This document shows, piece by piece, positions 22,671 through 23,501 of a stretch of 64,000 nucleotides of DNA. The number at the start of each line of letters is the position of its first letter. Positions within the stretch are counted from its first letter, which is position 1. Below the pieces are notes generated by a model. The model made no database searches. It had not been told where the DNA came from and worked only from the letters and a program-made list of their open reading frames with translations. The DNA comes from Escherichia coli (lineage in GTDB: Bacteria > Pseudomonadota > Gammaproteobacteria > Enterobacterales > Enterobacteriaceae). Location of the stretch: NCBI RefSeq assembly GCF_030013205.1, contig NZ_CP122648.1. One strand, given 5' to 3'. The translations under genes were made by a program, and so were the position numbers.

Positions 22671-23501
22671 TTACGCGGAGCGAGACGCTGTCGCCCCTGC
22701 GTGTGGTGGCAGAGCAAATGCCACCAGCGCCGGGATGAGATAAATAAACCAGACGGCGACTTCGCTGACACTTGGCGCTTCCTGATAGCCAAAAATCCCT
22801 TCCATCAGCGTGCCAAACAGCGAGTGAGTTGAGAGCACCGCACTCATATCGAAGGCGATTTCCTGAAAGTGGTTCCACAATCCGGCTTCATGAAATGCGC
22901 GAATGGCACCAGCCGCCAGCCCTGCGGCGACGAAGAGAATAAACAGGCTGGTCCATTTAAAAAATGCACCAAGATTGAGGCGAATACCGCCCCAGTAGAG
23001 CAGGAAGCCGAGCACCACGGCTGTAGCAAGACCGAGCATTGCACCCAGCGGCGGCCAGATCCCGACATCTTGTTGAAATGCCGCCAGCAGGAAAAAGACC
23101 GACTCCAGCCCTTCCCTTGCAACGGCAAAAAAGACCATCATCACCAGCGCCCAGCCATGATGATTTCCACGCTGCAATGCGCTATCGACTGCCTGCTCCA
23201 GTTGTACTTTGACGTTGCGCGACACTTTGCGCATCCAGAAAACCATCCAGGTAAGGATCACCACGGCGATCACCGCCACGATACCTTCAAACAGTTCCTG
23301 TTCTTTTTGCGGAAATTCGCCGGTGGTTTCGTTAATGAAGATACCCAAGCCCAGGCACAACGCAGCGGCAAGCAACACGCCAATCCACATCACACCAATC
23401 CATCGGCCTCGTTGGGTACGCTTAAGATAGCTGGCAATCAAACTGACAATCAGCGCGGCTTCAAGTCCTTCGCGCAACATAATGAGAAATGGAACAAACA
23501 T
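22671..23501 (-). CDS. efeU: Ferrous iron permease EfeU, intact
   Basis: Continuous 276-codon frame from MFVPFLIMLREGLEAALIVS... with REGLE motifs; no frameshift. Confidence 0.9.
   Translation of the reverse strand: MFVPFLIMLREGLEAALIVSLIASYLKRTQRGRWIGVMWIGVLLAAALCLGLGIFINETTGEFPQKEQELFEGIVAVIAVVILTWMVFWMRKVSRNVKVQLEQAVDSALQRGNHHGWALVMMVFFAVAREGLESVFFLLAAFQQDVGIWPPLGAMLGLATAVVLGFLLYWGGIRLNLGAFFKWTSLFILFVAAGLAAGAIRAFHEAGLWNHFQEIAFDMSAVLSTHSLFGTLMEGIFGYQEAPSVSEVAVWFIYLIPALVAFALPPHAGATASRSA

What the first reader, a model, noticed from the sequence alone, without database searches (positions are those of the whole stretch)
22671..23501. efeU is intact, unlike the cryptic K-12 allele
The EfeU reading frame is continuous for 276 codons. 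In K-12 efeU is known to carry a frameshift that makes the EfeUOB ferrous iron transporter cryptic, so this strain is predicted to have a functional low-pH Fe2+ uptake system.
Basis: partly seen in the sequence, partly recalled or inferred. Interest (0 to 1): 0.35.

Follow-up and report, generated by a model that had tools for sequence, protein, structure and literature searches.

The report
Ordinary intact efeU iron permease gene
The efeU iron-permease gene here is intact and lacks the one-base deletion that inactivates it in laboratory E. coli K-12, but intact is the normal state in about 93% of sequenced E. coli, so this is ordinary and already known.

Summary
Window 22671..23501 (minus strand) is an uninterrupted 276-codon ORF. 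It scores 331 bits against NCBIfam's EfeU equivalog model (cut-off 255). Intact efeO and efeB follow it.

Aligned with the K-12 MG1655 efeU pseudogene (b4490), K-12 lacks one G at nucleotide 106 (codon 36) and stops at codon 37. The window has that G. This matches the published description of the K-12 defect.

The window's EfeU equals O157:H7 EfeU (the strain background in which the system was shown to work) and frame-repaired K-12 EfeU except for R267H, in the C-terminal tail. Both REGLE motifs are present, and a Fur-box-like site (15/19) lies upstream.

A 70-nt K-12 probe across the deletion matched 5382 complete E. coli genomes. Only 368 matched exactly, and the five listed look like K-12 laboratory lineage. 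The other 5014 did not, and all 54 listed carry the extra base. The K-12 allele is the exception and this window is the wild type.

Function is inferred from sequence, not tested. Novelty: already known. Interest is low.

The parts
22671..23501 (-). efeU: a 276-codon intact ORF for an Ftr1-type (OFeT family) inner-membrane iron permease. REGLE motifs lie at residues 10-14 and 129-133. The G that K-12 lacks is nt 106 of the gene (window position about 23396).
   Evidence: ORF. (NCBIfam EfeU 331 bits against 255). (Pfam FTR1, 6.3e-89). (alignment with K-12, motif positions). (hydropathy: six clear TM segments, plus the REGLE-containing segment around 117-140).
21486..22613 (-). efeO: a 375-aa periplasmic cupredoxin + peptidase-M75 (imelysin) protein. 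It has an N-terminal signal-peptide-like sequence and an HRLE (HxxE) motif at residue 217.
   Evidence: NF007697, 771.7 bits. (Cupredoxin_1 13-115, Peptidase_M75 135-367). (PDB 7wgu EfeO, E = 4.9e-229)..
20209..21480 (-). efeB: a 423-aa DyP-type haem peroxidase/deferrochelatase. It has a twin-arginine signal (SRRRLLKG) and keeps D235, H329 and R347.
   Evidence: TIGR01412, 614.8 bits against 428. (Dyp_perox_N/C). (PDB 2y4f YcdB, E = 6.8e-263). (residues). The assignment of these three residues as catalytic is from my own knowledge of DyP peroxidases.
23561..23579 (-). Fur-box-like site CGTAATGATAATCGCTATC, at -78..-60 from the efeU ATG. It matches the 19-nt Fur consensus at 15 of 19 positions.
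   Evidence: None of 2000 shuffles of the 653-nt spacer reached 15/19. The 100 nt before the ATG are 99/100 identical to K-12, 98/100 to O157:H7 and 96/100 to CFT073. Fur repression of efeUOB is stated in PMC3577903. Binding at this site was not tested here.
23539..23553 (+). CpxR-box-like site GCAAAGAAAAGTAAA. It matches 9 of the 10 specified positions of GTAAA-N5-GTAAA, at -52..-38 from the ATG. This is a candidate only.
   Evidence: pattern scan, no chance control. CpxAR regulation is known only from the title of Cao et al. 2007, as cited in PMC9174327. Whether this is the site is my inference.
23502..24154 (-). putP-efeU intergenic spacer, 653 nt. The promoter-proximal part is conserved. 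The distal part varies between strains and carries a dispersed repeat of about 150 nt (23890-24040) and a putP terminator hairpin (24037-24074).
   Evidence: spacer lengths: 653 here, 542 in K-12, 219 in CFT073, 2673 in O157:H7. (hairpin). (repeat, median 3 copies per genome).

Best explanation
This is the ordinary wild-type efeU gene of E. coli, the first gene of an intact efeU-efeO-efeB operon.

EfeU is a seven-helix inner-membrane permease of the yeast Ftr1p (oxidase-dependent Fe transporter) family. Its two REXXE motifs are thought to line the iron path. EfeO (cupredoxin + M75 domains, Sec-exported) and EfeB (DyP haem peroxidase, Tat-exported) act in the periplasm. Together they are thought to bind Fe2+, oxidise it and hand it to EfeU for import. 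The operon is repressed by Fur-Fe2+ and induced at low pH, with CpxAR repression at higher pH.

Shown here: the ORF is continuous. The K-12 codon-36 deletion is absent. All three proteins pass curated family thresholds and keep their signature motifs. The promoter-proximal region, including a Fur-box-like site, is conserved.

Inferred from published work on near-identical proteins: that the system is expressed and transports iron in this strain.
For: - ORF continuity.
- K-12 lesion located at nt 106 (codon 36) and absent here: in agreement with PMC3577903.
- Family membership: EfeU 331 bits against 255, EfeO 771.7 against 297, EfeB 614.8 against 428; Pfam domains.
- EfeU is identical to O157:H7 and repaired K-12 EfeU except R267H. 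Residue 267 lies outside the stretch matched by the EfeU equivalog model (residues 5-262).
- REGLE motifs at 10-14 and 129-133.
- EfeB keeps D235/H329/R347 and the RRRLLK Tat motif. EfeO keeps HRLE.
- Fur-box-like site, 15/19, reached by 0 of 2000 shuffles.
- Same gene order (putA, putP, efeU, efeO, efeB, phoH, pga) as annotated E. coli genomes.
- The intact allele is the norm. Of 5382 genomes, 368 match the K-12 deleted allele exactly. All 54 listed non-exact hits span 71 nt instead of 70.
Against: - No direct evidence of expression or transport was obtained.
- The simple sigma-70 scan found no promoter-like site in 20000-24300. The published promoter mapping could not be read because Cao et al. 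2007 is not held.
- R267H is a rare, lineage-restricted substitution: only 21 of 4259 genomes match the 3'-terminal 70 nt exactly.
- EfeB carries 8-10 substitutions relative to K-12, O157:H7 and CFT073, including A85P, P151S and A338P. Their effects are untested.
- The biochemical roles of EfeO and EfeB are still debated in the literature (PMC9174327, PMC3577903).
Confidence: 0.93

Rival explanations
1. The ORF is intact but the system does not work in this strain. Possible causes are lineage-specific amino-acid changes (EfeU R267H; EfeB A33V, A85P, P151S, K250Q, A338P, S418R, R422Q) or the altered upstream spacer.
For: R267H is rare: 21 of 4259 genomes share the exact 3' end, mostly porcine ETEC/O139:H1. 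Seven EfeB substitutions are absent from K-12, O157:H7 and CFT073. The spacer carries an extra repeat of about 150 nt that K-12 lacks at this site.
Against: Residue 267 is in the extreme C-terminal tail, beyond the part matched by the EfeU equivalog model (5-262). CFT073 also varies in that tail (V263A, M276A). EfeB keeps its catalytic triad and Tat motif and scores 615 bits against a cut-off of 428. The extra repeat lies more than 380 nt upstream of the ATG, and the last 100 nt are 99% identical to K-12. The same alleles persist in a whole clade of isolates, which does not look like decay.
Confidence: 0.04
2. The operon is functional, but its main role is to extract iron from haem in the periplasm (EfeB deferrochelatase, with EfeU importing the released iron) rather than to take up free Fe2+ at low pH.
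For: PMC3577903 reports that the O157:H7 EfeUOB system, with complete efeU, extracts iron from haem in the periplasm and allows haem-iron use without the Dpp permease. NCBIfam names EfeB 'deferrochelatase/peroxidase'.
Against: The same literature (Cao et al. 2007 and Grosse et al. 2006, as cited in PMC9174327 and PMC3577903) shows that EfeU is needed for Fe2+ uptake in acidic medium. The two roles are not exclusive. Nothing in the sequence separates them.
Confidence: 0.25
3. The apparent intactness is a sequencing or assembly artefact, and the strain really carries a frameshift.
For: Elsewhere in the window there are single-base length differences from the closest genome, including one in an A7/A8 homopolymer. 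Indel errors in the window are therefore conceivable.
Against: The critical site is a GG dinucleotide (ATTGGTGTG), not a homopolymer run. The 1001-nt region is 100% identical to an independent complete genome (H1). The extra base is present in about 5014 genomes.
Confidence: 0.01

Closest known systems
EfeU of E. coli O157:H7 (EfeUOB/YcdNOB system; Cao et al. 2007) and EfeU of E. coli Nissle 1917 (Grosse et al. 2006)
   Same: 276 aa. It differs from an O157:H7 EfeU (strain LSU61) at one residue and from CFT073 EfeU at four. It has the same operon, the same chromosomal neighbours, the same two REGLE motifs and the same Fur-box-bearing proximal upstream region.
   Different: R267H in the C-terminal tail is restricted to a small, mostly porcine clade. 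The distal putP-efeU spacer differs in length and content.
Cryptic efeU pseudogene of E. coli K-12 (b4490, formerly ycdN)
   Same: 98.4% nucleotide identity over the gene, the same locus and the same downstream efeO and efeB.
   Different: K-12 lacks the G at nt 106 (codon 36) and terminates at codon 37. The window has the G and reads through all 276 codons.
Yeast Ftr1p / OFeT family (Pfam FTR1 PF03239, TIGR00145)
   Same: Full-length match to the family profile, REXXE motifs and a multi-pass membrane topology.
   Different: The partner proteins are EfeO (cupredoxin-M75) and EfeB (DyP peroxidase), not the multicopper ferroxidase Fet3p (PMC9174327).

Membership tests
EfeU (NCBIfam NF041756 equivalog) / FTR1-OFeT iron permease family | Full-length sequence match above the curated cut-off | tested here: met
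   NF041756: 331.2 bits against 255. TIGR00145: 349.9 against 303.8. Pfam FTR1: 298.5 bits against 25.3, residues 1-275.
EfeU / FTR1-OFeT iron permease family | Two REXXE motifs in transmembrane segments | tested here: met
   REGLE at residues 10-14 and 129-133. Both lie in hydrophobic stretches. That these motifs define the family is from my own knowledge of Ftr1p and EfeU.
EfeU / FTR1-OFeT iron permease family | Seven transmembrane helices | tested here: inconclusive
   Kyte-Doolittle hydropathy gives six clear segments (about 1-23, 38-56, 70-88, 146-170, 179-203, 248-266). The seventh expected segment (about 117-140, with REGLE) falls below the 1.6 threshold. No dedicated topology predictor and no solved EfeU structure were available (no PDB match).
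EfeUOB tripartite system | efeU followed in the same orientation by efeO (cupredoxin-M75) and efeB (Tat-exported DyP peroxidase), all intact | tested here: met
   ORFs at 22671-23501, 21486-22613 and 20209-21480, all on the minus strand. Family scores, domains, twin-arginine motif and catalytic residues.
EfeUOB tripartite system | Iron (Fur) regulation: a Fur box upstream of efeU | tested here: met
   15/19 match at -78..-60, reached by 0 of 2000 shuffles, conserved in K-12, O157:H7 and CFT073. This is a sequence match only; binding was not tested.
EfeUOB tripartite system | Fe2+ uptake activity at low pH | not testable with these tools
   This needs 55Fe uptake or growth assays. It is inferred from near-identity to O157:H7 EfeU and the literature (PMC3577903, PMC9174327).
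K-12-type cryptic efeU allele | Single-base deletion in codon 36 giving a premature stop at codon 37 | tested here: not met
   The alignment shows the G present in the window and absent in MG1655. The window is therefore not a member of the cryptic allele class.

The most novel reading that the evidence does not exclude
The clade-restricted EfeU R267H change, and/or the clade's diverged EfeB (seven private substitutions, including two new prolines), could tune EfeUOB activity or partner interaction in porcine ETEC / oedema-disease E. coli as an adaptation to the acidic pig gut. Nothing here excludes this, and nothing supports it beyond the restricted distribution.
Probability: 0.03. Interest if true: 0.15.

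Novelty: already known. Interest (0 to 1): 0.05.

Why it matters
It matters little beyond correct annotation. The result confirms that this strain, like nearly all natural E. coli, should have the EfeUOB ferrous-iron and haem-iron route that K-12 laboratory strains lack. The practical point is that K-12 is the atypical reference at this locus, so 'intact compared with K-12' is not a distinguishing trait. It opens no open question to testing.

Tried and rejected
- I tried to read Cao et al. 2007 (PMID 17627767) for the mapped promoter and the Fur and CpxR sites. The paper is not held, so the regulatory sites rest on consensus scans only.
- The simple sigma-70 scan found no promoter in 20000-24300. 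A relaxed scan gave only weak 8/12 candidates. I do not name a promoter.
- I searched the PDB for an EfeU structure and found none by sequence. Topology therefore rests on hydropathy.
- I considered whether the extra DNA in the putP-efeU spacer might be regulatory. It is a dispersed repeat of about 150 nt (median 3 copies per genome) lying more than 380 nt upstream, so I set it aside as unrelated.
- I considered the alternative GTG start at 23510 (279 aa). I rejected it in favour of the ATG used by RefSeq, and the family models align from residue 1 or 5 of the 276-aa form.
- An Rfam scan of the whole window found nothing in or beside efeUOB.
- I did not use structure prediction or the large protein database searches. 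They could not change the verdict.

Full report
**Observation.** The window contains a minus-strand ORF that runs from ATG at 23501 to the stop at 22671. It is 831 nt long: 276 sense codons with no internal stop. The product matches NCBIfam's EfeU equivalog model at 331.2 bits (cut-off 255, E = 4.4e-99) and TIGR00145 at 349.9 bits (cut-off 303.8). It also matches Pfam FTR1 over residues 1-275 (E = 6.3e-89). This is a real gene, not a chance ORF.

**Context.** Two ORFs lie directly downstream on the same strand.
- efeO (21486..22613) encodes 375 aa with cupredoxin and peptidase-M75 domains. It scores 771.7 bits against NF007697 and matches PDB 7wgu at E = 4.9e-229.
- efeB (20209..21480) encodes 423 aa, a DyP peroxidase. 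It scores 614.8 bits against TIGR01412 and matches PDB 2y4f at E = 6.8e-263.

EfeB keeps the twin-arginine motif (SRRRLLKG) and D235/H329/R347. EfeO has a signal-peptide-like N-terminus and an HRLE motif. The neighbours (putA, putP upstream; phoH, pgaDCBA downstream) are the standard E. coli arrangement.

**Comparison with K-12.** MG1655 annotates efeU (b4490) as a pseudogene of 830 nt. The pairwise alignment shows one gap and 13 substitutions in 831 columns. K-12 lacks one G in ...GATGGATT[G]GTGTGATG..., which is nt 106, the first base of codon 36. Translation gives ...RGRWIV* in K-12, a stop at codon 37, and the rest of the protein continues in another frame. [quoted passage not shown] PMC7549933 says the same. 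The window has the G and reads through.

**Is the encoded protein likely to work?**
- After the K-12 frame is repaired in silico, K-12 EfeU and the window's EfeU differ at one residue, R267H. The same single difference separates the window from O157:H7 EfeU. CFT073 differs at four residues.
- Residue 267 lies in the last ten residues, outside the region matched by the EfeU equivalog model (5-262). CFT073 also varies in that tail.
- Both REGLE (REXXE) motifs are present, at 10-14 and 129-133.
- Hydropathy shows six clear membrane segments. The expected seventh, which contains REGLE, falls below threshold. This is consistent with the seven helices stated in PMC9174327 but does not prove them.
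- H267 is rare. Only 21 of 4259 genomes match the last 70 nt exactly, and nearly all of those are porcine ETEC/O139:H1 isolates.
- EfeB differs from the K-12, O157:H7 and CFT073 proteins at 8-10 positions, none of them at the catalytic residues.

**Regulatory region.**
- The putP-efeU spacer is 653 nt here, 542 in K-12, 219 in CFT073 and 2673 in an O157:H7 strain, where it holds an extra ORF.
- The 100 nt before the ATG are 99/100 identical to K-12, 98/100 to O157:H7 and 96/100 to CFT073.
- That stretch holds a Fur-box-like site (CGTAATGATAATCGCTATC, 15/19, at -78..-60). None of 2000 shuffles reached that score.
- Next to it is a CpxR-box-like site (9/10, at -52..-38), which is a candidate only.
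- The simple promoter scan found nothing, and the paper that mapped the promoter is not held. I name no promoter.
- The extra DNA relative to K-12 is a dispersed repeat of about 150 nt (median 3 copies per genome), far upstream.

**How unusual is an intact efeU?** It is not unusual.
- The 1001-nt region is found in 5417 of 5426 complete E. coli genomes.
- A 70-nt probe taken from K-12 across the deletion matched 5382 genomes.
- 368 of those matched exactly. The five listed are K-12 derivatives or have K-12-sized genomes.
- The other 5014 did not match exactly. All 54 listed hits from that group span 71 nt, so they carry the extra base.
- The intact allele is therefore the norm (about 93%). The deleted allele is confined, as far as sampled, to the over-sequenced K-12 laboratory lineage.

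**Mechanism (from the literature, not tested here).** EfeU is the Ftr1p-like permease. EfeO and EfeB act in the periplasm. The system takes up Fe2+ at low pH, is repressed by Fur, and can also use iron extracted from haem by EfeB (PMC9174327, PMC3577903). The exact roles of EfeO and EfeB are still unsettled.

**Verdict.** Novelty: already known. Interest: about 0.05.

**Provenance and side observations.**
- Window 10513-64000 is 99.925% identical to E. coli CFSAN018748 (swine, Denmark).
- Window 1-10512 is the end of an integrase-bearing, IS-ridden island at tRNA-Ser. It is seen at 80% coverage or more in only 33 genomes, and all those listed are porcine.
- Two genes in the window do carry frame-altering single-base changes: torS, near its 3' end, and a yccE-family gene, in an A-run.

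Noticed in passing
window 1-10512: This is the right-hand end of a genomic island inserted at tRNA-Ser (serX). Only the last ~15 nt of the tRNA remain at the junction, and ARAGORN finds no tRNA in the window. The island carries a tyrosine integrase (9144..10352, minus), IS2 (about 3700-4973), an IS1 (7694..8197) that interrupts a DUF3987 gene (6578..7759), and a Gp2/YagK-YfjJ-like ORF (1281..1844). Only 33 of 5426 complete genomes cover it at 80% or more; all those listed are porcine ETEC/O139:H1.
   Followed up: partly
window 3054-3788 and 4807-6213 (minus strand): A 468-aa ORF and a 244-aa ORF flank the IS2 copy. They look like two halves of one lysine/tyrosine/asparagine-rich hypothetical gene split by the insertion. 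The larger half is not annotated in ETEC4067. Neither half matches Pfam or PADLOC.
   Followed up: partly
window ~51275 (torS, 48559..51302, plus strand): torS has a 1-nt deletion at nt 2717 of 2745 relative to O157:H7. The last residues NKKDLNAI become IRKT followed by a stop. PGAP flags the gene as 'frameshifted' in the near-identical CFSAN018748, but only the extreme C-terminus changes.
   Followed up: yes
window ~40672-40679 (yccE-family gene, 39501..40761, minus strand): An A8 run here corresponds to A7 in CFSAN018748 and shifts the frame at about codon 28. The long ORF therefore starts only at an internal ATG (40688; 395 aa instead of 419). This could be a real frameshift, slippage in the homopolymer, or a sequencing error.
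   Followed up: partly
window 17032-18357 (pgaC, plus strand): pgaC is intact in the window (441 codons plus stop), whereas the closest genome, CFSAN018748, is annotated with an internal stop in pgaC. The two differ by three substitutions within the gene.
   Followed up: partly
window 23890-24040: A dispersed repeat of about 150 nt lies in the putP-efeU spacer. It has a median of 3 and a maximum of 8 copies per E. coli genome, is unannotated, and is absent from this site in K-12. I did not test its resemblance to the small interspersed repeats described for K-12. The spacer length varies from 219 to 2673 nt between strains.
   Followed up: partly
window 18827-19020 (+) and 53009-53431 (-): There are two Rfam matches above gathering score. 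Ysr251 (192.8 bits) lies antisense within phoH. The cspA thermoregulator (156.3 bits) covers cspG and its 5' leader.
   Followed up: no
L003 1075-2418 (O157:H7 strain LSU61): In O157:H7 the putP-efeU spacer holds an extra 447-aa 'hypothetical protein' gene (WP_001247488.1) on the opposite strand. It is absent from the window, K-12 and CFT073.
   Followed up: no
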